Below are positions 1,874-25,491 of a stretch of 25,746 nt of DNA, in pieces. Source of the stretch: a virus (taxonomy: Duplodnaviria; Caudoviricetes); the IMG/VR virus record IMGVR_UViG_3300042300_000117, positions 1 to 25,746 of that record. One strand, written 5' to 3'. The notes beneath the pieces are model-generated. The model saw only the letters and a program-made list of their open reading frames with translations. It was not told the origin of the DNA and searched no databases. Numbering within the stretch: the first letter of the stretch is position 1; the number at the start of each line of letters is the position of its first letter. The position numbers and the translations under genes were made by a program.

Positions 1874-2061
1874 CGCTTGCTCCCCCGTTTCATGCGAGAT
1901 TTACCCGCTTTTGAATAAGCAATAGCCACCGCTTGTTTGACCGCCTTGCGAGTGTTGGCAGGGCGGCTAGTGCCAATCTTGCCTGATTCTTTGAAGCCAC
2001 GCACCATTTCACTAATATTCTTGCTCATGGTCTTCTGGCTCTTACCTTTACTGAGGGGCAT
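1870..2061 (-). CDS. Small basic phage protein (MPL.KGKS...KQAVAIA.S.A type, DUF6496-like)
   Basis: 63 aa, very K/R-rich; the MPLSKGKSQKTMSKNISE and KQAVAIAYSKAG motifs recur in phage late regions. Confidence 0.7.
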   Translation of the reverse strand: MPLSKGKSQKTMSKNISEMVRGFKESGKIGTSRPANTRKAVKQAVAIAYSKAGKSRMKRGSKR

Positions 2062-4408
2062 TTTGAGTCCTTTCTGGCGTTTCTGCGCCTAACTGTGTAC
2101 CCACCGTTTGCCTTATCATTCTGGCAAGAACACCCTGCCGTTTGTCTGGTGGAGACTTCAAAACTTCTTTGAGCTTAACCGGGTCAGTCACGATGTCGCT
2201 GACAGCCGCACGGATATTGGCAGTGTATTGACGATAGCGGTCAATGGCAAATGCACCACCCATTGCACCAGCCGCAGCCGTTGTGCCGCCAACCTCTACC
2301 GGCAATCCAAATCTAGCAGACAGCGCAGCCAAGCCAGCCGTGTATAAGCCAGCAATAGCGCCGCCCTTCTTAACTTGTGACATCTCATTGTTGATTAAGC
2401 GAGTCAACTCTTGCGCTGATGATTCCGTGCCGGGAGTGCGTCCAATGTTTTGAGATGCACGACTAATCGCTGTTTGTATGCTGACAACATCGGCAATCGC
2501 ATCGTCAACGAACCGAAGCTCATCTGGCGTGTACAGGCCGCTTGCTTGCATGGACGGCTTAATACGGTCACGATAGCTACGCTCAATACTTCCCGGCGGC
2601 AAGGTGCCAATCAAGTCACGGACGCTGGATTTAAATGCGGCAGCACCTTCCGGCGTTCTACCAAGCACTTTGGCGGCAGAAGCCACATCACGGGATGAGC
2701 CAGTACCCATCATCAGGTTTTTAAAGTTTTCTGCTTGCTGAGTCTGTGTGCCGCCCATCTCAAACATCTTGGCACGTTGCTCAGTCAACTTCTCCGTCTG
2801 CTTAGTAACGCGAGTGGTTTGTTCTTGTTTCCTAGCAAAGTCAGCAAAGTCTTTTTTTAGCTGCGGGAAGCGCGATAGCCATTCGCTATTGGTTCTCAGC
2901 CAGCTATTGATTTGCGCTGGCGTTTTATTTGCCAACTCTGTGCTGGCATAGTTACGCGCCAGCACCTCAACTCTGGTTTTGTCTCCACCCGCCAAAGCAA
3001 TCAAGTTGTCGATATTTTCTGGCTTACTAAATATTTTCCCCGGCAAAGTTGATGCAAGAGTTGCAAGCTCTCCGCGCACAGCAGTGCTTGGGGCAGTCAA
3101 AGCTCGGCCTACCTCAGATTCAAACTGATTGATAGGCTCACTCATTGCTTTGTAATCTGCAATGTATTTGTCGAACTTTTTGCCGGTAAACTCCGACATG
3201 ACGCTCTCAACCATTTCCTTTAGCTTCTTGGCATCTTTCTGACCAATAGCGTCATAACCTGTCTCTGGCAATCCAGAAGCGCGATCACCCAGTTGGCGAC
3301 GAAGACGCTCTAATCTTTCAAAACCCACCTTTGTTTTCTTTGTCTCACCAGTCAGCGGGTCAAAGCTCACGCCGGTTAGTTCACGACGCACCTTGTCAAA
3401 TTGCGCTTTTGTATCGCTAGTAAGCAATTCGCGCTTGGTTTGTGGGTCACGCGCAAACGCCTTGAGTTGCACCTCGGCATTCTTAAATGCCTGAGTATTC
3501 TCAACGCCTTGACCTGCCAACTCTTTGGTACGAGCCTCGTTTAGCATTGCCTCTTTATTGACATTCGTTGCAGTCTCACGATCAGCCTTTAGCTTTTCTA
3601 AGCGAGACATTGCAAGGCTACGCAAATCGCCGCCAACTTGCTCCATTGTGCGAGGCTGGCTAATAGCGGCTAACCGTTGTTCAGTGCCAGTTTGCAGTTG
3701 ACGCGACAACTGTTCACCACGCTGCCTACCAGCAACCGATTCAATGTTTAGCAGTCTTGCAACTTCAGTCGCATCTAGTGGCTGATCGTATGGTTTGCCA
3801 CGCAGACGTTCTTGCGCTTGACGTACTAATGCCAGCTTGGATTCAACGGTTTGTGGCAATGCAGCGACTTGTTCCGGTGTCATTTGACGAACAACACGTT
3901 CCGCAGCGCGTTCAGTACCACCGGGCGTGATAGGGCGAAACCCTCTTGCAGCAGAACGAAGACTAGAAGCCAAACCCTCAGTAGCTAAACCTGCGCCAGT
4001 TTCGACTAAGAATCTAGGAAAGGCTCCGGTATTTTCAGGCAGCATATTACTAGCGCCTTGCGCCGCAGAGCCACCCAAAAAGGCCAATGCACCTTGCCGA
4101 GTAAGTTCGCCACCAGTGCGGGGAATAAACATTTCTGCCGCACGGGACGCGTAAGGCGCAACCCTAGAGCCGCGAGATGCAAGTTGAGCCGCTTTGGACA
4201 CGCCACCAAGCACGGGAATGGCACCCATAGCTTGCAAACCAGATTCAATTATTGATGGAGACTCAACCCTACCAAATCGTTCTGCCGCACTACGAGCAGC
4301 CGCAGATTCTTCAGGCGAAGGGCCGGGTATTTGCTCAACCAGACTACCGCCAAAGCGATCAGTCTGGCCTTCATCTACACTTTCACCACCAAAACGGTCT
4401 TTAGCCAT
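2048..4408 (-). CDS. Large internal virion (ejection / DNA transfer) protein
   Basis: 786 aa, helical, with Gly/Ala-rich hydrophobic segments near both ends and no Cys; last of four large genes after the tail module, as in T7/P22-type podoviruses; GAGG SD. Confidence 0.6.
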   Translation of the reverse strand: MAKDRFGGESVDEGQTDRFGGSLVEQIPGPSPEESAAARSAAERFGRVESPSIIESGLQAMGAIPVLGGVSKAAQLASRGSRVAPYASRAAEMFIPRTGGELTRQGALAFLGGSAAQGASNMLPENTGAFPRFLVETGAGLATEGLASSLRSAARGFRPITPGGTERAAERVVRQMTPEQVAALPQTVESKLALVRQAQERLRGKPYDQPLDATEVARLLNIESVAGRQRGEQLSRQLQTGTEQRLAAISQPRTMEQVGGDLRSLAMSRLEKLKADRETATNVNKEAMLNEARTKELAGQGVENTQAFKNAEVQLKAFARDPQTKRELLTSDTKAQFDKVRRELTGVSFDPLTGETKKTKVGFERLERLRRQLGDRASGLPETGYDAIGQKDAKKLKEMVESVMSEFTGKKFDKYIADYKAMSEPINQFESEVGRALTAPSTAVRGELATLASTLPGKIFSKPENIDNLIALAGGDKTRVEVLARNYASTELANKTPAQINSWLRTNSEWLSRFPQLKKDFADFARKQEQTTRVTKQTEKLTEQRAKMFEMGGTQTQQAENFKNLMMGTGSSRDVASAAKVLGRTPEGAAAFKSSVRDLIGTLPPGSIERSYRDRIKPSMQASGLYTPDELRFVDDAIADVVSIQTAISRASQNIGRTPGTESSAQELTRLINNEMSQVKKGGAIAGLYTAGLAALSARFGLPVEVGGTTAAAGAMGGAFAIDRYRQYTANIRAAVSDIVTDPVKLKEVLKSPPDKRQGVLARMIRQTVGTQLGAETPERTQNAPQ

Positions 4409-4410
4409 AG

Positions 4411-5832
4411 TTACCTCGCTGCGGGTTTTCTACCGCGCTTACCAGTTTGAGTATCAATATATTCAGCATTGGGCGGCAAAGCATCGTACTCCGCCTTAGT
4501 GCTAATTTTTTTGGGTTGTGCAGCAGGTGCGGGCGTTTGATCTTGAGGCGCTTCATCTTCAGGCAAATCAAGGTAAGCACTTATTGTTTCATCGCTGACA
4601 CCACGCGCACTTGCTTTGCGGCGCTCTCTTGCAATTCCATCATTAACAATTTTTTGTTGATTCTTAAAATACATATCAGCAACTTCTGGTGACGTTGCTG
4701 GAGTAATCGTAAATTTTAAAAAACTTGCTTGTTCATTATTTGTCAGTGTTGCACCAAACAATTTGTTTCTAACAACAGCAAGAAATGCGTCATAGTCTTT
4801 CCACCAAGCCACAGTTTCTCTCGTTACTTTTGGCGCTTTAGAACCTAACGAGGCCATAATGTCCCCTGTTGGCAATCCTTTTTCAACACCGCTAATAATT
4901 AAATTGGCAACCTCTGCATTAGGTGCAATACCAAAATATTGCGGCTTTCTTGTGGAATTAGCGCGATTCAATGCAATCCCTGCTTCCGCAGCGTTATCCA
5001 TTTTTTTCTCAAGCGCCGCAGGTATTTGCTCAATCTTGCGCTTACCTGTGCCGCTTCCACCGCCACCCATCTTTCCGCCGCTTGGAGTCATCTTCAAGGC
5101 TTTCTTTTCCTCAAAGATTGTTCGTTGCTTCTCAAGTTCTATGTCAGCTTTATCGGAAGATTCAATCGCCTTATTAAATAAATCATAGGCTTTTTGATAA
5201 TTTCCCTTGCGAAGCTGTGCGGAAATTAAACCATTGCCAGTTTGACTTTCAATTAACTTGGCTTCAACCATTGCTGCATTGCGATCTTTAGACAATAAAT
5301 TCAACATGCGTTCAAAACGATCTTTGAGCATTTGATTATGGTCTTTTCGAGCGCGGTCAGCCTCATCAAACTTGAGCTTGGCAGAAGCAAACCGTTCTCT
5401 TTGTCCACGGTCTTCAGCATCCTGCATTTCACGGATTGCCATTAACTGTGATTTGCCTGATGCGCCACCAATCCCGCCAATAACTAAAGCAGACAACAAA
5501 CGCATACCGGCGCTCTTTGCATAATCTGACGCTTTAATTTCGGGCGCTGCAAATTCCTCATAGGGCTTGATGCCAGCTTCCATTTCAGTAGTGGCTTGAC
5601 GCGACTGCGTTGCCAAAGCGCCCTCTGCTTCGGCTTCTTTTTTGATTTGCCCTTGTTGAATGCCGAATTGAGTTCTTGCCGCATCTTCTTCGGCTTTAGC
5701 TGCTTCCTTAAAGGCTTCCGGTAGCTTTGTGCGGGAATAGTCAGCGCGTTCTTTTAATCCAGACTTCTCGCTAAGTCCTCGAATCAAAGATGGCGAAGTG
5801 CCTAGCGCATCATTCAATACTTGAGTTGCCAT
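4411..5832 (-). CDS. Internal virion (ejection) protein
   Basis: 473 aa, coiled-coil, with a short Gly-rich hydrophobic segment (LLSALVIGGIGGASG) and C-terminal AEYDALPPNAEYID..TGK motif; AGGAG SD; position in the ejection cluster. Confidence 0.6.
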   Translation of the reverse strand: MATQVLNDALGTSPSLIRGLSEKSGLKERADYSRTKLPEAFKEAAKAEEDAARTQFGIQQGQIKKEAEAEGALATQSRQATTEMEAGIKPYEEFAAPEIKASDYAKSAGMRLLSALVIGGIGGASGKSQLMAIREMQDAEDRGQRERFASAKLKFDEADRARKDHNQMLKDRFERMLNLLSKDRNAAMVEAKLIESQTGNGLISAQLRKGNYQKAYDLFNKAIESSDKADIELEKQRTIFEEKKALKMTPSGGKMGGGGSGTGKRKIEQIPAALEKKMDNAAEAGIALNRANSTRKPQYFGIAPNAEVANLIISGVEKGLPTGDIMASLGSKAPKVTRETVAWWKDYDAFLAVVRNKLFGATLTNNEQASFLKFTITPATSPEVADMYFKNQQKIVNDGIARERRKASARGVSDETISAYLDLPEDEAPQDQTPAPAAQPKKISTKAEYDALPPNAEYIDTQTGKRGRKPAAR

Positions 5833-5840
5833 AATGACTC

Positions 5841-7115
5841 CTATGATTGCTGAGTAGTCGTAGTAGTAGCGGGCGCGTTTGTGCGCTGCGCTTGCTGTAC
5901 CTCACGACCAACAATGCCCGCAAACAACTGGCCTAACTGCTGATCACGCTGCAATTCCATTTCTAGTGCGCGACGATCATACTGGTCAGCAATGTTGGCA
6001 AGACGTAACGCCTCTTGGAATCCTTCTTGACGAGCCAGACTGCGCGCACGGCGCTGCTGTGCTGCAAGAACGCCGGATGCTGCACTACCTGTTTGCAATC
6101 CGCGCTCACCTAAACCCTGACGCGCACGGGCTTGAGCGATCTCAAGGTCTTGCTCTTGCTCTGGAGTCAAACCAGCGCCAGTTGCACGGCCCATTGCCTC
6201 TGCTTGTGCAGCGCGGAATGGTTCAGCAGCACGACGGGTTTCCTCAATGTCACGCTTCATGGCGCGATTAGCGCGATTGAATAACAATGCTTGCGCCAAT
6301 ATGCCAGCGCCAGCCGTACCAGCACGGGTAAGGCGAGGATATTGATTCAATACATCTTCAAGTTCTTTTAATCCCCCTTCTGCTTGGTCAGCAAAGCCGC
6401 CATCACCCCCTCCGCGTCCAACATCAACATCCATTCTGTTTAAGGTAAAGTCCTCCAATGGACTAAGCTCTCCAAGCGATCTGTTTCCGTAAGGTGCAGT
6501 AAAGGGTTGATTGTTAAAATAAGTGTCTGCTGAACGGTTAAAAAGCGCTTGAGAATAAGGGTCTTCAGAAGTAAATCTATTGCCCGTTGCCGCATCATAG
6601 ACACGGGGTATTGGAGATGATTGCATTAAATCATCTGGTCTATTTAAGGAGCCAGTGCGCGCTCCCGTCAACCTTTCATAAACACTTCGCCGCGTTTCTG
6701 GAATAGAAGGGTCTTGTTGAAAATTTCGATCTAATGGGAAATCTCTAATTGTTTGGACTTCTTGGCGAGCTTGGCGAGGTTGACTGTAATCCTGCTTAAA
6801 AATATCTTTCTTAGGGTCAAAATCTTGGTATGTATCAACTGGCGGCGGATTTCTCAAGCGATCAAACCTTAGCTCAGTAACAAAATCGCCTATATCTAAC
6901 GGCTCAAAATTGTCATAGTCGCTATAAAACTCTGGCAAGCCAGTATCAGGATTCGATGTACCTGCACCACCCAAGTCAGCTAGCAACTCAGCTTCTTCTG
7001 GCGTAATGTGAGCTAACATCGTATCGCCATTGCGACCCATGCGACGCAGCATCTCAGCCATCTCTTTAGCGCCGCCCATGCCAGTACCACCCGCCATCAT
7101 TTGAATAGTCTTCAT
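5841..7115 (-). CDS. Internal virion (ejection) protein
   Basis: 424 aa; N-terminal GRNGDTMLAHITPEEAELL...GGAGT.NPDTGLPEF motif that I recognise from uncultured podophage internal proteins; Q/A/R-rich coiled-coil C-terminus. Confidence 0.6.
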   Translation of the reverse strand: MKTIQMMAGGTGMGGAKEMAEMLRRMGRNGDTMLAHITPEEAELLADLGGAGTSNPDTGLPEFYSDYDNFEPLDIGDFVTELRFDRLRNPPPVDTYQDFDPKKDIFKQDYSQPRQARQEVQTIRDFPLDRNFQQDPSIPETRRSVYERLTGARTGSLNRPDDLMQSSPIPRVYDAATGNRFTSEDPYSQALFNRSADTYFNNQPFTAPYGNRSLGELSPLEDFTLNRMDVDVGRGGGDGGFADQAEGGLKELEDVLNQYPRLTRAGTAGAGILAQALLFNRANRAMKRDIEETRRAAEPFRAAQAEAMGRATGAGLTPEQEQDLEIAQARARQGLGERGLQTGSAASGVLAAQQRRARSLARQEGFQEALRLANIADQYDRRALEMELQRDQQLGQLFAGIVGREVQQAQRTNAPATTTTTQQS

Positions 7116-8843
7116 TTAGATTCCCAATGCCTTTCTAAGACGTAAAGAACGGGTGTTCCACGCCTCACTTTGTACGCCTTCATCGCCACCAAAAATGGGT
7201 TCTTTATTACCAACAATCGCTGCCGTTGGGCTTGAGCCAACAGCCCGTGCGCTAATAGAACTTTGATACGGCGTACCACGACGGCTACCACCTGCGGTTC
7301 TTGCATCCAATGGTCGGAACTCACCAGTATCATCAGGAGGAACTAATGGCGTTTCTTCAACGTCAAAGTCCATTGAGTCTTCCAACAATGCCAACAGTTC
7401 TTCATCTGTCATTGCCTCAAGATCAGCCGGTTGTTCTGCCAATCCCTCTCCACCGCCGCCACCTTCACCAGCACCTTCACCACCTTCTCTTGGTGCGCCG
7501 CCTTCCTCGCCAGCCATCGCATCACCAAGCAGTTCGTTGCCAGTCATATCCTCAACGGGGCGAGTACCACCTGCCATCTCGCGCTCACCATCGCCAACCA
7601 TTTCACCTTCACCTCTGCCACCCGCCGCAGTGCCACCTGTTTCTGGGCCAGTAGGGAGTGTTGGTGCGGTAGATTCTCCACCTGCGGGTGCGGTAGATTC
7701 TCTGCCGCCGGTCGCTGCTTTTGCAATATCAGTTACTCGACCTGTACGAACGTCAGGGCTAGGCGCTGTTGTGCCAGCAGGTTTTGTTGCAGCCGGTGCT
7801 GCTTCTCCACCGGGGCGAGTTTTAGAAACGCTAACTTCTAAACCGCCTGTCGATCCAGTCTGACCAGCAGAAACAAACTCATAATCAACCGTATCCGTTT
7901 GCGGATCATAAACAATGGTGTAACCTGTTTTTTCACCACTTGGCAATGTTGAGGTTACATCCTTGCGATAAGTAACAATGCCATCACGGTCTGTGTACTT
8001 AATAACAATATCGCCTTCCTCACCGGGGCGAGTAGCAAACTCAGGACGAGTGGCAATAGAAGTTGGCGCGGCAATTCCTGTTTCGCCCATCCCCGCCATT
8101 TGCTCGCCAACTTGAGAGCCAAAAGGAGCCGGGGCAGGTTTTGTTGCTGCCGTTTTTGTTGGCGTAGTTATATCGTCAAGCGCTCTTTGACCTTCACCAA
8201 TAAGCGTACCAACGCCAGCACCTATAAGTTCACCGGCTATATCACCTGTTACAGCGCCACGCCCTAATGCCTCACCAACGTCTGCGGTATAGCCAGCAGC
8301 TTTGCCAGTTTGATCTGCGCCTAAACCAGCAGCGCCAGAACGTGCCAACGATGCGCCAGCAGAACCAGCAGCACCTAACAATGCTGCCTCACCAACATCA
8401 GCACCGACCGCCGCAGCACCCGCAGCAGAACCAACAGCGCCACCCACGGCATTTGCCAAAGCAACTTGTGCCGCTGAGCCTGTACCAATCGCGCTACCTG
8501 TTGCAGCAGCCACGGGGCGAGCAATAGTTGGGGCAATGTAAGCGCCTAATGCTGCCTTACCAATGTCTTCAAGATCACCGCCTTGAGATGCGCTAATAAC
8601 AGCCGCAGTAATTGGTTGTGTTACCAATGAAATTGTTGCCGCAGAAGCGCCTACGGCAGCGCCAGCAGCAGCTATGGCATAGGGCGCGGCAATCGCTATA
8701 ACAATAATCTCGGGGTTTTCGGCAACGTATTTGACGGTATCAACAATAACCTCACCGACCTTCTCAACGGCATCGCCAACTGCCTCAACCACATTGCCAA
8801 TGGCATCGCCAACATCTTCAACAAACTCGACAACAGCGCTCAT
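7116..8843 (-). CDS. Internal virion (ejection / pilot) protein with amphipathic N-terminus and Gly/Ala-rich hydrophobic domain
   Basis: 575 aa; VGDAIGNVVEA/VGDAVEKVGEV repeats, about 170 aa of Ala/Gly hydrophobic helices, then a disordered acidic G/E/T/P-rich half; first gene of the ejection cluster; GGAGG SD, ATGA overlap. Confidence 0.6.
   Translation of the reverse strand: MSAVVEFVEDVGDAIGNVVEAVGDAVEKVGEVIVDTVKYVAENPEIIVIAIAAPYAIAAAGAAVGASAATISLVTQPITAAVISASQGGDLEDIGKAALGAYIAPTIARPVAAATGSAIGTGSAAQVALANAVGGAVGSAAGAAAVGADVGEAALLGAAGSAGASLARSGAAGLGADQTGKAAGYTADVGEALGRGAVTGDIAGELIGAGVGTLIGEGQRALDDITTPTKTAATKPAPAPFGSQVGEQMAGMGETGIAAPTSIATRPEFATRPGEEGDIVIKYTDRDGIVTYRKDVTSTLPSGEKTGYTIVYDPQTDTVDYEFVSAGQTGSTGGLEVSVSKTRPGGEAAPAATKPAGTTAPSPDVRTGRVTDIAKAATGGRESTAPAGGESTAPTLPTGPETGGTAAGGRGEGEMVGDGEREMAGGTRPVEDMTGNELLGDAMAGEEGGAPREGGEGAGEGGGGGEGLAEQPADLEAMTDEELLALLEDSMDFDVEETPLVPPDDTGEFRPLDARTAGGSRRGTPYQSSISARAVGSSPTAAIVGNKEPIFGGDEGVQSEAWNTRSLRLRKALGI
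7663..7702. repeat. 16-bp direct repeat with 24-bp period inside a CDS
   Basis: GGTGCGGTAGATTCTC at 7663-7678 and 7687-7702; encodes ESTAP twice (ESTAPAGGESTAPT). Confidence 0.85.
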
Positions 8844-9292
8844 GCTTCACCTCCGCGAGATGGCCCCGTTTTTACAGTCGCCATAAACGAACCATCATCC
8901 ATTTCTTCGAGTTCGTATCCCATTTCAGGATTAGGCGGGTTATTTGAGATGTAGCGGAAAACAGCAATAATTGCCGGATCGTTGAAAGTAGAAGCTACCG
9001 TATCAAAGCCCATTTTGTAAGCAGCCTTGATAAACTCAATACCGTTTTGCAAGAAGTTTGCAGCAGTGTCAGCATTCAAAGCGCGGAACCAACCGATTCT
9101 TGGTGCCGACTTGTGAAGAATAAAAAGCGTGTTGCCTTGACGGATGAATAAGGTATCATCCATTTTGAGTTCGGCATTGATCATCTGAATCGCTTTACTG
9201 CGATCAACGCCAGCGTCAGTGTTCATGGCTGCAATGGCAACAATGTCCTCTGCACTTAACTCTTGCTCTCGGCTGTCCACCATCTTCGCCAT
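8840..9292 (-). CDS. Hypothetical protein, possible GNAT-like acyltransferase
   Basis: 150 aa; inferred helix-helix-strand-strand-strand(GWFRALNAD)-helix(AANFLQNGIEFIKAAYKMGF)-strand(DTVASTF)-helix order fits the GNAT fold; sits directly before the ejection genes, where many podoviruses carry a GNAT-like gene; no Q/RxxGxG motif. The CDS is secure, the function is an inference. Confidence 0.45.
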   Translation of the reverse strand: MAKMVDSREQELSAEDIVAIAAMNTDAGVDRSKAIQMINAELKMDDTLFIRQGNTLFILHKSAPRIGWFRALNADTAANFLQNGIEFIKAAYKMGFDTVASTFNDPAIIAVFRYISNNPPNPEMGYELEEMDDGSFMATVKTGPSRGGEA

Positions 9293-9294
9293 TT

Positions 9295-10419
9295 TTACCT
9301 CACGGGATCAAAGATCGCAGCGGTATAAACATTGCCCATACCTGCCGCGAGACTCATTATTAAACCATCGGGTACCTCACAATCCTGCGACAGAAAAACA
9401 TCGTCCTTTTCCGTGCGGTTAGGAATAGCAGGTACAACACCATAAACTAGATTGTCAAGCAAAAGTAGCGTTTCAAGCAAGCCCGAAGCGCCCATTGTGT
9501 GACCTATTTTTGGTTTAAATGATGTTGCTATAAAGTTATTTAATGTCTTGTAAAGCGCCATTGCCTCTGACTCATTGTTTGACTCGGTGCCAGTGCCATG
9601 TGTTTTTACTATGGAAATATCGTCAGCATGGACATCGCCGTACAGCATGGCACCTTCAATGGCTTTAATGTAGCCTTGACCGTCTTCTCGCTGACCAATG
9701 GCATTCGTATGCTTTTCGGCGGCATGGTAGGCGCTGACCAGTCTAGCTTTAGGCTTTAGGTTGTAGAAGTTCACCTCGCCTTCAGATTGCAAGACGGCAA
9801 AAGCAGCGCCTTGCCCGACGTAAAACCCCCCATTTTTACGATCAAACGCACTGGGCAGCACGTTTCCGTCGCCTTCTTCCTTCAGTGTCAGGCTGGCTCC
9901 AGAATCGCCAAAGAACTCTAATACGGAGTTAGAGACGGCATCCTCAACGGTTAGGATAATAAAACGGGTATAGCCAAAGGCTTCCAGCATGATGCAGTCC
10001 ATAAGCGTTTTTAAGCTGGACGCACAAGCGGTAGCGTCGGTAGCAATGTAATCTGGCTCACATATCTGGTTTGCTAGTCTGCCAGCCATTACTTGCGTTA
10101 AGGAAAAAGGCAAAAACTTGTAGATGTAGTGCAGTTGCGTATTCGTTTGATTGTCTTTTGGATTGATGCCAGCAAAGTGACTGTTGCCAGAAGCCAAGAT
10201 AAATGCAGTTTTGCCCAGTGCCGGGTTTTGTCGCAACCACTCCAACGTGGCGGGTGCCAAGACCATGTTGGCAAGGTTATGCGGTGCGTATTTGTAGCCA
10301 TGCTTGGTGCCTTGATAGCTTTCAGGAATGAAGTGCGTCCGTTGTGGATGCACAATGTCTTCCATCAAGGTCGTTTGAGTTGTAGATACAGTATGACCAA
10401 AGGTAAGAAACAGACTCAT
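9295..10419 (-). CDS. Beta-ketoacyl-ACP synthase (FabB/FabF-type ketosynthase), divergent
   Basis: 374 aa; DATACASS (Cys132), KTHGTGT (His274), FKPKIGHTMGASG (Lys302, His307); SAFDRKNGGFYVGQGAAFAVL matches the PFD..RDGFV.GEGA motif; SLAAGMGN matches the SNSFGFGG motif. Confidence 0.93.
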   Translation of the reverse strand: MSLFLTFGHTVSTTQTTLMEDIVHPQRTHFIPESYQGTKHGYKYAPHNLANMVLAPATLEWLRQNPALGKTAFILASGNSHFAGINPKDNQTNTQLHYIYKFLPFSLTQVMAGRLANQICEPDYIATDATACASSLKTLMDCIMLEAFGYTRFIILTVEDAVSNSVLEFFGDSGASLTLKEEGDGNVLPSAFDRKNGGFYVGQGAAFAVLQSEGEVNFYNLKPKARLVSAYHAAEKHTNAIGQREDGQGYIKAIEGAMLYGDVHADDISIVKTHGTGTESNNESEAMALYKTLNNFIATSFKPKIGHTMGASGLLETLLLLDNLVYGVVPAIPNRTEKDDVFLSQDCEVPDGLIMSLAAGMGNVYTAAIFDPVR

Positions 10420-10709
10420 TTCATCACCTCAATGGCTTTTTCTATATCAATTTCACTAACTCTTGCGTGTTTTACTAGAAAATCTCGCATGTCGCCTACC
10501 GTTTCAGGCTTCATGTCTTTTCCTTCGGCCTCAGACACGGCAAAAGCATCGCAAAGATACATGCCCATAATCAAGCCATCCAGACTATCTATCTCAATGT
10601 TCTCAAACCGATCTTCCATGCTAGTAGCTGGAATTGCTGGTTTTCCATAAGGCTTGGCAGCAACCGCAGCCGCATTAAATAAACGGTAAAAATCCTCATC
10701 AGAAATCAT
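10416..10709 (-). CDS. Acyl carrier protein, divergent
   Basis: 97 aa, acidic; EIDSLD phosphopantetheine attachment motif (Ser42), then M.L.DAF.V and ETVGD..DF as in ACP helices II and IV; ATGA-coupled to the ketosynthase. Confidence 0.88.
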   Translation of the reverse strand: MISDEDFYRLFNAAAVAAKPYGKPAIPATSMEDRFENIEIDSLDGLIMGMYLCDAFAVSEAEGKDMKPETVGDMRDFLVKHARVSEIDIEKAIEVMK

Positions 10710-11053
10710 GTCACCCCCAGTGTACGTGCTATCTGCTCATGAATTAACAAATGACTATTTACCCAATCGTAAAAGTCATCCTCTTGGTTGAAGTCCAAGT
10801 CTAGCAGATTAAAGGGGTCATTGAGATTAAGAATAGTGGCGTAGCGTTGGTGTTCTTGTTGATGGATGAGTAGCCAGTCATCCAAGTCTTGCGGGTCAGC
10901 ATCAATAATTGGATACCGTGGCACATAAAACCCAGCGTCAGTCAACCTTTCCCAAAAGACTTGATGCTGTATGCCATTTTCAAAAAGAAAGTCACGGAGG
11001 CTATCTGGCTCCCCAAATATCGGGGTTGCCAGCGCATCCATATTCAGGCTCAT
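10706..11053 (-). CDS. Acidic hypothetical protein with three His-containing helical repeats
   Basis: 115 aa; D[FW]xxx[NH]xxxH[QE] occurs three times at 37-38 aa spacing; ATGA overlaps on both sides. Confidence 0.75.
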   Translation of the reverse strand: MSLNMDALATPIFGEPDSLRDFLFENGIQHQVFWERLTDAGFYVPRYPIIDADPQDLDDWLLIHQQEHQRYATILNLNDPFNLLDLDFNQEDDFYDWVNSHLLIHEQIARTLGVT

Positions 11054-22947: not shown

Positions 22948-24701
22948 AAACCCAGTGCTTTTAGGTAGCTAGACACCTGTTTTTGCACCTGAACCTGCCC
23001 TCCAGCCTCATTTTCAGCGTCTTTTACCTCTTTTTTGTCTCTTGTGACGCGATTTGCGATCAATCTAGGCTGTAATTGCTCTGCATAAGCAGCAGCAGCT
23101 AGGGCGCAAGCGATCACACGGTCATCTTTTGACCTGCCAGCGGCGGCAATGGTGCCGTTATCGCGCACAATCCCCTTCATTTCGTCGATGCACTCCTCTG
23201 AATACACCTTCAACATGCCACGCTCGAAGTAATCCTTCAAGTAATTGAGCATTCTTTCCTTGCTGGAGTGGGTTGTCACCCATCCAATGCTGTTGGAAAT
23301 GCCAAAACTATCGTTCCTGCGCCACAAATAGTGCTGCATGTTGCCCAAAACGTCTTGCAAGTGACGGGCTTCAGCCGTTGGCAGGGTATTGGCTTGCCGT
23401 TTTAGGTTCCGCATCTCGTTGATTACGGCTTGACCGGGGCCATTTACCTCCAAATTTAGTAGGGAATTGCCATAAGCGCCAGCCAAATAGCAAACAATCC
23501 ACGCAAATTGATAGGTATTTAGTTCAGCAGACGCAAATTCTGCCACCTGATCCATGCCATCGGCATAGCAACGGAAGACCTGAATGCAGAATCTATCTGC
23601 CCAGTCGGACGATCCATAAGCCGGGTCAGCGCCAATGACGTAGTAGGCGTTGGCAACGGGTTCTTCCCATATCTTCAAGGTTGCCAGACGCTCATTGCTT
23701 TGAATCAAACTGGTATCTTGAAAGTTGGCTCCCATGCTAAATCGGTAAGAGACAAAGGGTGTACGCTTGGCCTCCTTCATGGAGTCGGTACAACGGGCGG
23801 TAGAGAAGAAGGATGTACCCGTCATGACGAAGGCATAGTCTTCTGTTGGCGGAAACTCCTGATACATTAGGCCATCGTCCTTTAAGCCTTCATGTAGCTT
23901 CCAGCGCCACCATGCGATCTGCCGGGAGTTGATCTCATAGTTGTACATCTTGCGAATATCTTTCGTCCATTCCTTTTCCTCGGGTGACAATTTGCCATCC
24001 CAGTAGGTTTTGTAGATGTTGGACTTGTGATCGACGGTGTAGAGCTGATTGCGCCACCAGCCGCAAAAGATTGCCCTTTGGGTTTTGGCTCGCTTGGCTG
24101 TTGTCCACATATCGTGGAACATATTAAAGCCACGGGCGGTGGACTCAAACATGTAGTAGCGCAGCGGGTTATTCTCAGCCAGAGAAGCCAAGAGAGATGC
24201 CAGACCTTCTTCGTCGCCCCATGAAGACGTTTCCGTGCCATGCAAGAAGGTAATGCCCTTGCCTCGACCCAATCCACCTTTAGCGCGAGTGCCAGCGACT
24301 TGATAGAACATGCGGCTACGGTTTTGTAGAACCAACTGATTGCGGTTGTGGCTCATCAGCGGAATCTTGTATTGCTTGGGCAGACCGTCCATGTACATCG
24401 AGAGGGTGCTTCTGAACTGCTCCCGGTTTTCTTCCGTATCCGTCGTTAGCGTGCCTTGCATGCCGGGGTGGATAAAGTGCCAGTACAGGTCAAGCGCAAG
24501 CGAGATGGTGGTAATACCAAGCTGTCGGCCTTTCAATACCACGAAGAAGTGGATGTCTTCTTTTAGGCCACGGGCAACCTCATCCATGACATAGGTTTGG
24601 GTGCCAAGTAGCTGGTCGCCCAGTGTGATCATGCCGAGTTCTTTGGATTCAATCCTTAGTTGTCGGCAGAAGCGGTAGAAGTTCTTGCGATCAAACTGCA
24701 T
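22944..24701 (-). CDS. terL: Terminase large subunit
   Basis: Walker A VVLKGRQLGITT, Walker B-like FLHGTE, coupling motif FESTARG, nuclease motifs YVIGADPAYG, EVNGPG and KDDRVIA. Start placed at the ATG at 24701 (MQFDRK) rather than 24752. Confidence 0.93.
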   Translation of the reverse strand: MQFDRKNFYRFCRQLRIESKELGMITLGDQLLGTQTYVMDEVARGLKEDIHFFVVLKGRQLGITTISLALDLYWHFIHPGMQGTLTTDTEENREQFRSTLSMYMDGLPKQYKIPLMSHNRNQLVLQNRSRMFYQVAGTRAKGGLGRGKGITFLHGTETSSWGDEEGLASLLASLAENNPLRYYMFESTARGFNMFHDMWTTAKRAKTQRAIFCGWWRNQLYTVDHKSNIYKTYWDGKLSPEEKEWTKDIRKMYNYEINSRQIAWWRWKLHEGLKDDGLMYQEFPPTEDYAFVMTGTSFFSTARCTDSMKEAKRTPFVSYRFSMGANFQDTSLIQSNERLATLKIWEEPVANAYYVIGADPAYGSSDWADRFCIQVFRCYADGMDQVAEFASAELNTYQFAWIVCYLAGAYGNSLLNLEVNGPGQAVINEMRNLKRQANTLPTAEARHLQDVLGNMQHYLWRRNDSFGISNSIGWVTTHSSKERMLNYLKDYFERGMLKVYSEECIDEMKGIVRDNGTIAAAGRSKDDRVIACALAAAAYAEQLQPRLIANRVTRDKKEVKDAENEAGGQVQVQKQVSSYLKALGF

Positions 24702-25491
24702 GGATGGTGTACCCGTAGTGCCGTGCAAACAGGTCGTAGGCCACATTCTCACCCATGATTTGAGATTGCTGTTCCTTAGTCAATTTCCAAAGCATCTCGC
24801 CGTTAGAGAGCAGTTGTCTAAATCGGCTGTGGTGTCCAAATATCTTGGCTATATCCATGCCTTCATGGGGCTGACCAAAGTGTTCAAAGGCAAAGGTTTT
24901 GGCAAGCTCATCTGGCGCATACTTTATGCCAATCTTTTCCATAGCAGGTCGCAAGAAGCAGGTGAGTTGTACGTCTTCATTCATCAACATAGGATCAGGC
25001 ATTTGGCGGCGCATGATGCCGTACTTGGAGGGCGCTTCCAAGAAGGCTTTAGAGCGCAGGGAGAAGCCACCGTTTTGCACTACCAGTGCGTCGCCCTTCT
25101 CTACCCAGTTGTACATGGTATGAAACTCGCCATTGGGCAGCAAAGCGGCATGGGTTGGGCCACCAACGTAATCGTAGTTGAACCAGTCATCGTTCCAGTT
25201 CTCACCATTTAGCGCCCATCCATCGTGTTGCACGATAAGCGCGTATTTGGTGTCAATGTAGTTATGCAGGGAATACATAACAAACTCGCTATACCCGTGG
25301 TAGTCCAAGGGGGCTGAAAGAATCATTTGCGGGATGCCGCTGATGTCTAGCTCCACGTTGGTAATTAAAAGGGTACGAGCGCCGGGGAGGGCTTCCAACG
25401 TCTTTTTAATAGCAGGTACGGCAACTCTGCCGCGTCCATCGCCGTAGATGGCAACAATAGTAATGTCTTCAAACTTTGTAGAAGCGTACAT
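24691..25491 (-). CDS. DUF5672 family, glycosyltransferase-like protein
   Basis: 266 aa; YS.F....L..YIDT.YALIVQHDGW......W...W..YDYVG.P, NGGFSLRSK.FL, NEDV, AP..LA..FAFE and FG.H match this family as I know it. Confidence 0.75.
   Translation of the reverse strand: MYASTKFEDITIVAIYGDGRGRVAVPAIKKTLEALPGARTLLITNVELDISGIPQMILSAPLDYHGYSEFVMYSLHNYIDTKYALIVQHDGWALNGENWNDDWFNYDYVGGPTHAALLPNGEFHTMYNWVEKGDALVVQNGGFSLRSKAFLEAPSKYGIMRRQMPDPMLMNEDVQLTCFLRPAMEKIGIKYAPDELAKTFAFEHFGQPHEGMDIAKIFGHHSRFRQLLSNGEMLWKLTKEQQSQIMGENVAYDLFARHYGYTIHAV

What the first reader, a model, noticed from the sequence alone, without database searches (positions are those of the whole stretch)
7116..10709. ACP + ketosynthase + possible acyltransferase embedded in the virion operon: candidate system for lipidating a phage ejection protein
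Seen: an ACP (Ser42 in IDSLD) and a ketosynthase with intact Cys132/His274/His307 lie between the tail-fibre genes and the internal virion genes. They are chained by ATGA overlaps or a 2-nt gap (ACP > KS > 150 aa protein > 575 aa protein), so they appear to be integral late genes rather than a separate metabolic island. Known: KS and ACP build or shuttle acyl chains; ACP-dependent GNAT-fold enzymes such as HlyC/CyaC acylate RTX toxins and enable membrane insertion; podovirus ejection proteins must cross the host envelope. Inference: the phage loads its own ACP with a tailored acyl chain and transfers it onto the neighbouring ejection protein to help it engage membranes during DNA delivery. No PPTase, FabD, FabG, FabZ or FabI is in the window, which argues against bulk fatty-acid synthesis and implies reliance on the host. 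I know of no described system of this kind but cannot check the literature.
Basis: partly seen in the sequence, partly recalled or inferred. Interest (0 to 1): 0.95.

Follow-up and report, generated by a model that had tools for sequence, protein, structure and literature searches.

The report
Phage ACP-ketosynthase pair beside ejection acyltransferase
A widespread group of uncultured tailed phages carries its own acyl carrier protein and fatty-acid-type condensing enzyme, usually just ahead of a predicted acyltransferase-fold gene and the likely DNA-ejection genes; the pair can move or be lost, so it is likely an optional supplier of a special acyl chain, which the acyltransferase would attach to an injected protein.

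Summary
Observation confirmed. ACP (Ser42), KS (Cys132/His274/His307) and the chained gene order are real; the 150-aa protein models confidently as a GNAT fold (50 of 50 top structural matches) and lacks the CoA P-loop motif (0 of 183 relatives). The KS forms a long-stemmed clade, about 600-700 IMG/VR stretches, and always had the ACP upstream where there was room. But 'integral' is overstated: in a sample less biased to this window, 18 of 68 KS genes sit with their ACP in a replication module instead (the two longest such records tested keep the GNAT elsewhere); a complete close relative (capsid 99% identical) has lost the ACP and keeps only a decayed KS remnant while its GNAT and 575-aa partner persist; two bacterial contigs carry ACP-KS alone. 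Another complete relative with a different gene in the ejection slot lacks all three. Best reading: GNAT plus first ejection protein is the core (like T7 gp13/P22 gp14 by position), and ACP-KS is an accessory NodF/NodE-like acyl supplier. Acylation itself is untested. Literature searches found no description. This scan noted the cassette before on at least eight other genomes.

The parts
10416..10709 (-). Divergent acyl carrier protein, 97 aa, phosphopantetheine site Ser42 (DSLD)
9295..10419 (-). KAS I/II-type ketosynthase, 374 aa; C132, H274, K302, H307 present in 172 of 172 distinct family members; Met361 where FabF has its gatekeeper Phe (position recalled)
8840..9292 (-). GNAT-fold protein, 150 aa, no [RQ]xxGx[GA] CoA P-loop; positional analogue of T7 gp13 and P22 gp14
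7116..8843 (-). 575-aa likely first ejection protein; begins M-[S/G/A] then an amphipathic Val/Asp/Gly-rich stretch; candidate acyl acceptor (inferred)
   Evidence: no family hit; weak Atlas look-alikes
2048..7115 (-). Three further large genes (424, 473, 786 aa), likely the rest of the ejection operon; relatives end this run with an SLT transglycosylase gene
10706..11053 (-). 115-aa conserved gene of unknown function, upstream boundary of the cassette; kept in relatives with and without ACP-KS

Best explanation
The phage encodes a paired ACP and ketosynthase next to a predicted GNAT-fold protein, and the pair likely acts as an optional private acyl supplier (like rhizobial NodF/NodE) whose product the GNAT would transfer onto the likely first ejection protein. 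Inferred steps: a host PPTase primes Ser42; the KS takes an acyl chain from host acyl-ACP or acyl-CoA on Cys132 and condenses it with malonyl on the phage ACP (malonyl loaded by host FabD), giving an extended or 3-oxo chain, perhaps further processed by host FAS; the GNAT, which lacks the CoA P-loop, takes the carrier-bound acyl group and puts it on the free alpha-amine of the 575-aa protein (Ser, Gly or Ala after Met removal, or Gly after a leader is cut), anchoring its amphipathic N-terminal helix in the host envelope during DNA delivery. GNAT plus ejection protein is the core; without ACP-KS the GNAT would use a host donor. Shown: the genes, folds, catalytic residues, pairing, mobility and loss. 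Not shown: any acyl transfer, its donor or its acceptor.
For: GNAT fold: model pLDDT 90.7, 50 of 50 top rows GNAT-fold, best Z 10.9, rmsd 3.0, 130 aligned. No [RQ]xxGx[GA] in 183 of 183 GNATs; an altered P-loop is described as a trait of carrier-dependent GNATs SbzI and FeeM (PMC11685415, passages). ACP upstream of KS in 172 of 172 and 67 of 67 cases with room; GNAT directly downstream in 164 of 168 (window-biased) and 50 of 68 (less biased). Records with relocated ACP-KS keep the GNAT elsewhere in G003, G826 (91% complete) and G827; the relocated KS of G003 is closest to the KS of its GNAT's sister phages. A complete relative (G422) with an unrelated gene in the ejection slot lacks ACP, KS and GNAT together. 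Residue 2 of the ejection protein is S, G or A in 152 of 159 KS-adjacent rows (no background control run). In one KS-less lineage the GNAT changed at 11 of 35 conserved columns, four to residues unseen in 162 KS-adjacent GNATs, and the ejection N-terminus has the highest charge (+5) and hydrophobic moment values of 0.65 and 0.77.
Against: G421 (100% complete by CheckV, capsid 99.4% identical) has no ACP and only a stop-ridden KS remnant, yet its GNAT type departs at 1 of 35 conserved columns and its ejection N-terminus is of the usual type. 18 of 68 KS lie in a replication module. Two bacterial contigs carry intact ACP-KS without GNAT, one with host-like GC of 0.62. T7 gp13 also lacks the P-loop motif and T7 is recalled to carry no ACP, so the missing motif is not specific; it could also mean a non-catalytic assembly factor. 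The top fold matches are mostly CoA-using GNATs. KS-adjacent ejection proteins reach +4 charge, so the cationic N-terminus is not exclusive to the KS-less lineage, which is one lineage. Small residues at position 2 are common in bacterial proteins (recalled).
Confidence: 0.45

Rival explanations
1. ACP-KS is a host-directed accessory module that alters the host's acyl pool or envelope lipids (chain length, lipid A or membrane remodelling, exclusion of other phages); the GNAT is an unrelated T7 gp13-like assembly factor or acetylase, and adjacency reflects an old insertion point.
For: Relocation beside an SNF2-type helicase in a whole lineage and to the early region of L083; loss without GNAT change in G421; retention on bacterial contigs without GNAT; GNATs sit beside internal virion genes in phages not reported to carry ACP-KS (PMC6775973, passages).
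Against: A bulk-metabolism gene could use host ACP, yet this KS always travels with a private, divergent ACP; no FabD or PPTase family in 5 of 5 near-complete genomes; the trio is adjacent across phages of about 37 to 65 kb; G422 lacks all three genes together.
Confidence: 0.3
2. ACP-KS does feed the GNAT, but the acceptor is something else: another ejection or tail protein, an internal Lys, a host protein or a small amine.
For: Nothing here identifies the acceptor; carrier-dependent GNATs act on small molecules and peptides alike (PMC11685415, PMC8842026, passages).
Against: The GNAT was followed by a 575-aa-type gene in nearly all loci read (72 of 77 by profile; lists), and both vanish together in G422.
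Confidence: 0.15
3. The KS works as a non-elongating transacylase or amide-forming transferase that moves a host acyl chain onto the phage ACP or straight onto a protein.
For: No reductases or FabD in the phage; distinctive conserved N-terminal motifs and Met361; top NCBIfam row is the cispentacin acyltransferase subunit AmcF, tied with FabF and far below cut-off (85 vs 325 bits).
Against: Both histidines and the Lys used for decarboxylative condensation are kept in 172 of 172 (one of the scans selected on two of these motifs); fold is closest to condensing KAS/type II PKS enzymes.
Confidence: 0.1

Closest known systems
Rhizobial NodF (ACP) + NodE (KS) + NodA (N-acyltransferase)
   Same: Minimal private ACP-KS pair relying on host FAS, feeding an N-acyltransferase; NodFE is an optional specificity module (PMC3557214, passages; NodA as GNAT-fold is recalled).
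   Different: Acceptor there is a chito-oligosaccharide; no sequence tie to NodE was tested or seen; here the host is a phage late or replication region.
Carrier-dependent GNATs: GdvG (goadvionin), SbzI, FeeM
   Same: GNAT fold with altered P-loop; GdvG puts a fatty acyl chain on a peptide N-terminus (PMC11685415, PMC8842026, passages).
   Different: Those have demonstrated activity within large biosynthetic clusters; identity to fold matches here is 4-14% and activity is untested.
T7 gp13 (PF11090) and P22 gp14 (PF11039, DUF2824)
   Same: Small gene directly ahead of the first ejection gene; DUF2824 is the nearest named Atlas cluster (0.93, 139 shared features); gp13 is described as GNAT-like (PMC6775973, passage).
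   Different: No profile similarity to either sequence (hhalign probability 0.2% and 0.06%); no PF11090 or PF11039 hit; no ACP-KS beside those genes.
FabF/FabB with AcpP
   Same: Fold and Cys-His-His triad.
   Different: 30% identity or less; 82 bits against a TIGR03150 cut-off of 494; stem of 1.86 changes per column from 24 cellular KS; not in the fabG-acpP-fabF order reported in roseobacter prophages (PMC8224337, passages).
HlyC/CyaC RTX acyltransferases (recalled)
   Same: Concept of ACP-dependent acylation of a membrane-entering protein by a GNAT-like fold.
   Different: No Pfam or NCBIfam hit; they are recalled to use the host ACP and acylate internal Lys.

Membership tests
Acyl carrier protein | DSL motif with phosphopantetheine Ser and ACP-like sequence | tested here: met
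   D41-S42-D44 invariant in 91 of 91; profile returns ACPs
Acyl carrier protein | Is phosphopantetheinylated | not testable with these tools
   needs mass spectrometry
KAS I/II condensing enzymes | Thiolase-type KS fold with Cys-His-His | tested here: met
FabF equivalog (TIGR03150) | Score above curated cut-off | tested here: not met
   82.5 bits vs 493.75
Recent host fabF/fabB capture | Nests among cellular KS | tested here: not met
   50 family rows form one side of a branch against 24 cellular KS; best other genome among 400 scored 96.7 bits vs 663; samples only
GNAT superfamily | GNAT fold | tested here: met
CoA-using GNAT | [RQ]xxGx[GA] pyrophosphate loop after strand 4 | tested here: not met
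   0 of 183
Carrier-dependent GNAT (GdvG/SbzI/FeeM type) | Altered P-loop | tested here: met
   trait from PMC11685415; not specific, T7 gp13 also lacks the motif
Carrier-dependent GNAT (GdvG/SbzI/FeeM type) | Binds and uses acyl-ACP | not tested
DUF2824 / T7 gp13 | Sequence membership (PF11039, PF11090) | tested here: not met
DUF2824 / T7 gp13 | Position directly before the first ejection gene | tested here: inconclusive
   position matches but the 575-aa protein is an ejection protein by inference only
NodF/NodE/NodA-type module | ACP+KS pair without reductases or FabD, with an N-acyltransferase in the same replicon | tested here: met
   architecture only; FabG/FabZ/FabI checked only in the window
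HlyC/CyaC (TAAT) | Family match or fold match | tested here: inconclusive
   no Pfam/NCBIfam hit; not among the 50 fold rows shown

The most novel reading that the evidence does not exclude
Tailed phages lipidate their own injection protein: the T7 gp13/P22 gp14-like GNAT gene is an N-terminal acyltransferase for the first ejection protein, and this large phage group adds a private ACP-KS pair to tailor the chain to its host's envelope, a bacteriophage counterpart of myristoylated penetration proteins of animal viruses.
Probability: 0.35. Interest if true: 0.93.

Novelty: new variant of a known kind. Interest (0 to 1): 0.72.

Why it matters
How podovirus ejection proteins enter the host envelope, and what the small GNAT-like gene ahead of them does (T7 gp13 is only 'suggested to play a role in morphogenesis', PMC6775973), are open questions. 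A four-gene, co-expressible cassette with natural with/without variants (window vs G421; relocated in G003/G826) makes protein lipidation directly testable. It also warns that these KS genes, labelled 3-oxoacyl-ACP synthase in databases, should not be counted as ordinary fatty-acid metabolic genes, and offers a divergent KS-ACP pair of unknown product.

Tried and rejected
Recent capture of host fabF: rejected. Obligate four-gene unit: rejected; my first synteny counts (78 of 81, 164 of 168) were inflated by ranking on similarity to the window or to L088. Strict switch to a cationic ejection N-terminus on KS loss: rejected as a rule (KS-adjacent rows reach +4; 10 of 12 KS-non-adjacent rows are not strongly cationic). 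Sequence membership in T7 gp13 or DUF2824: not found; GNAT profile against PDB sequences gave nothing under E 0.1 and PHROGs nothing consistent. Own promoter for the cassette: 3 sites found vs 4.4 expected, none on the coding strand; 132 of 155 ACPs start within 20 nt of an upstream ORF (rough ORF calls). Isolated phages: only one metagenomic record among 50,697 carries the full KS. Literature: searches returned no paper; some searches returned listings with no description of this cassette (only PMC8224337, PMC6775973 and PMC6918029 of these were opened, as passages; supplements not read; subscription journals not covered).
Full report
Observation. The window is the late region of a podovirus-like phage, read on the minus strand: terminase, portal, major head, adaptor, tail genes, then 73-aa and 115-aa genes, ACP (10416-10709), KS (9295-10419), a 150-aa gene (8840-9292) and four large genes of 575, 424, 473 and 786 aa. 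GC is level through the cassette, 0.44-0.48. The KS matches FabF-type structures by sequence (E 1.6e-17) and by fold (Z 40.9) but scores far below the FabF cut-off. The ACP is weak alone and clear as a family.

The 150-aa protein. It has no Pfam, PHROG or NCBIfam hit. The Atlas placed it nearest to viral hypothetical clusters, with DUF2824 as the nearest named family and a GNAT as a structural neighbour. An AlphaFold2 model from 46 sequences (pLDDT 90.7) matched GNAT-fold proteins in all 50 rows shown (best Z 10.9, rmsd 3.0, 130 aligned). Strand 4 runs into a short N-A-D-T turn and a helix; none of 183 relatives has [RQ]xxGx[GA] there. An altered P-loop is reported for carrier-dependent GNATs (PMC11685415, passages), but T7 gp13 lacks the motif too, and P22 gp14 has only part of it. 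T7 gp13 and P22 gp14 occupy the same slot ahead of the first ejection gene (PMC6775973, passage) yet show no profile similarity to this family. So it resembles them in position and broad fold; membership is not shown.

Spread and ancestry of the KS. One record among 50,697 annotated phages carries it in full, a spring-water metagenomic genome with the same order ending in an SLT gene. A pattern scan of 185,579 species genomes gave 6 close matches among 45 loci, all in metagenome bins; four of these look like phage contigs with the GNAT, two (L086, L087) have ACP-KS among cellular-type genes and nest inside the phage clade. Fifty family sequences form one group on a stem of 1.86 against 24 cellular KS (FastTree); in 400 genomes of the class of G011 the best other match scored 96.7 bits (one genome not scored). 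About 30 full-length intermediate relatives exist whose hosts I could not see, so 'phage-only' holds for the core clade, not proven for the wider family. C132, H274, K302 and H307 are present in 172 of 172 distinct sequences (partly selected by scan motifs).

Synteny. ACP lay directly upstream of KS in 172 of 172 distinct sequences and GNAT directly downstream in 164 of 168 with room, but these loci were ranked by likeness to the window or L088. Ranking by an outgroup gave 68 distinct KS (56 new): ACP in 67 of 67 with room, GNAT in 50 of 68; the other 18 are followed by a conserved gene of about 100 aa and, where seen, preceded by an SNF2-type helicase. Of six such records searched for the GNAT, G003, G826 (91% complete) and G827 carry it elsewhere; the three without are 20-58% complete. 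From the GNAT side, 168 of 190 distinct GNATs had KS adjacent, 16 did not and 6 had no room; the non-adjacent ones arise at least four times inside the tree (quick tree, 110 rows).

Loss. G421 (35,552 bases, 100% by CheckV, linear; capsid 99.4%, portal 94% identical to the window) has no ACP, a 50-codon KS remnant with three stops, and intact GNAT and 575-aa homologue. The 130-155 nt spacers in L148, L159, L162 and L335 are 81-87% identical to the 3' part of KS genes, so this is deletion, not ancestral absence. In the G421-type lineage the GNAT departs at 1 of 35 conserved columns; in the L159/L162 lineage (G002, 87% complete, no KS or ACP found) at 11 of 35, on a branch of 0.4, and the ejection protein starts with a Trp/Phe- and Lys-rich helix. 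G422 (37,132 bases, 100%; capsid 97%) has an unrelated gene after the 115-aa gene and lacks ACP, KS and GNAT; L493 and L495 also show a different gene there (incomplete records). No PPTase or FabD family was found in 5 of 5 near-complete KS-bearing genomes, with controls ringing in 10 of 14.

The candidate acceptor. The 575-aa protein has no family hit; its assignment rests on position and on SLT domains at the end of this gene run in L007, L080 and L083. Its first 225 residues resemble only viral hypotheticals and, below the naming bar, CDI pre-toxin regions. Residue 2 is S, G or A in 152 of 159 KS-adjacent rows; a few rows carry a leader ending before a Gly (L068, L168, L358), as P22 gp7 is annotated with a 20-residue leader cut by OpdA. 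Either route would expose a small N-terminal residue, which fits N-terminal acylation; this is inference, without a background control.

Reading. ACP-KS is the indivisible unit, GNAT plus first ejection gene is the core, and the two are usually but not always adjacent. The closest working analogy is NodF/NodE feeding NodA (PMC3557214, passages) or GdvG acylating a peptide N-terminus from an ACP (PMC8842026, passages). I put 0.45 on the pair supplying a tailored chain that the GNAT puts on the ejection protein, 0.30 on a host-directed lipid function with an unrelated GNAT, 0.15 on another acceptor and 0.10 on a transferase-type KS. No step of the chemistry was tested, and no complex model could be run.

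Novelty. Nine paper searches were answered; searches found no paper and none that describes this cassette (three of their papers opened as passages; supplements and subscription journals not seen). The scan's own index lists the cassette on at least eight other genomes; those notes are unchecked and not counted as support.

Noticed in passing
window about 9440-9480, minus strand (KS codons about 318-330); L148:3040-3135, L159:5915-5970: The piece of KS that survives in the deletion spacers contains TTGACA about 50-60 nt ahead of the GNAT start; possibly an internal promoter for the ejection genes (T7 has phi13 in this slot), but no good -10 box was seen.
   Followed up: partly
L405:2330-2500: Between the upstream gene and the GNAT lies a short stretch that reads like the start of the ACP and the end of the KS, a likely separate in-place deletion (weak match, E 0.016).
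   Followed up: partly
L086:7714-9125; L087:441-1843: Intact ACP-KS on Rhodocyclaceae and Nitrosomonadaceae bin contigs among cellular-type genes; hints at Burkholderiales hosts and phage-to-host transfer.
   Followed up: partly
L267:7579-7887; L497:4643-4960: A conserved 98-105 aa gene of no Pfam family is chained to the KS by an overlap in the replication-module arrangement.
   Followed up: no
L470:16511-18112; L493:14269-15449; L495:20849-21008: Close capsid relatives carry a different, unrelated gene in the ejection slot, showing that the whole ejection module is swapped within this phage group.
   Followed up: partly
L406:1229-1459: T7 gp14, the gene after gp13, begins Met-Cys; a different possible N-terminal acylation site worth checking by MS.
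   Followed up: no
window 24691-25491, minus strand: DUF5672 protein (E 1.2e-15) just upstream of the terminase; a relative also carries methyltransferase- and glycosyltransferase-like ORFs in its early region (L269, by eye).
   Followed up: no
window 10706-11053, minus strand: 115-aa His/Asp-rich protein of no family, 97-98% identical in close relatives with or without ACP-KS.
   Followed up: no
L166, L170, L174: KS and GNAT trees disagree for some rows (L166 GNAT groups with the window, its KS does not), suggesting recombination at the KS/GNAT junction.
   Followed up: no
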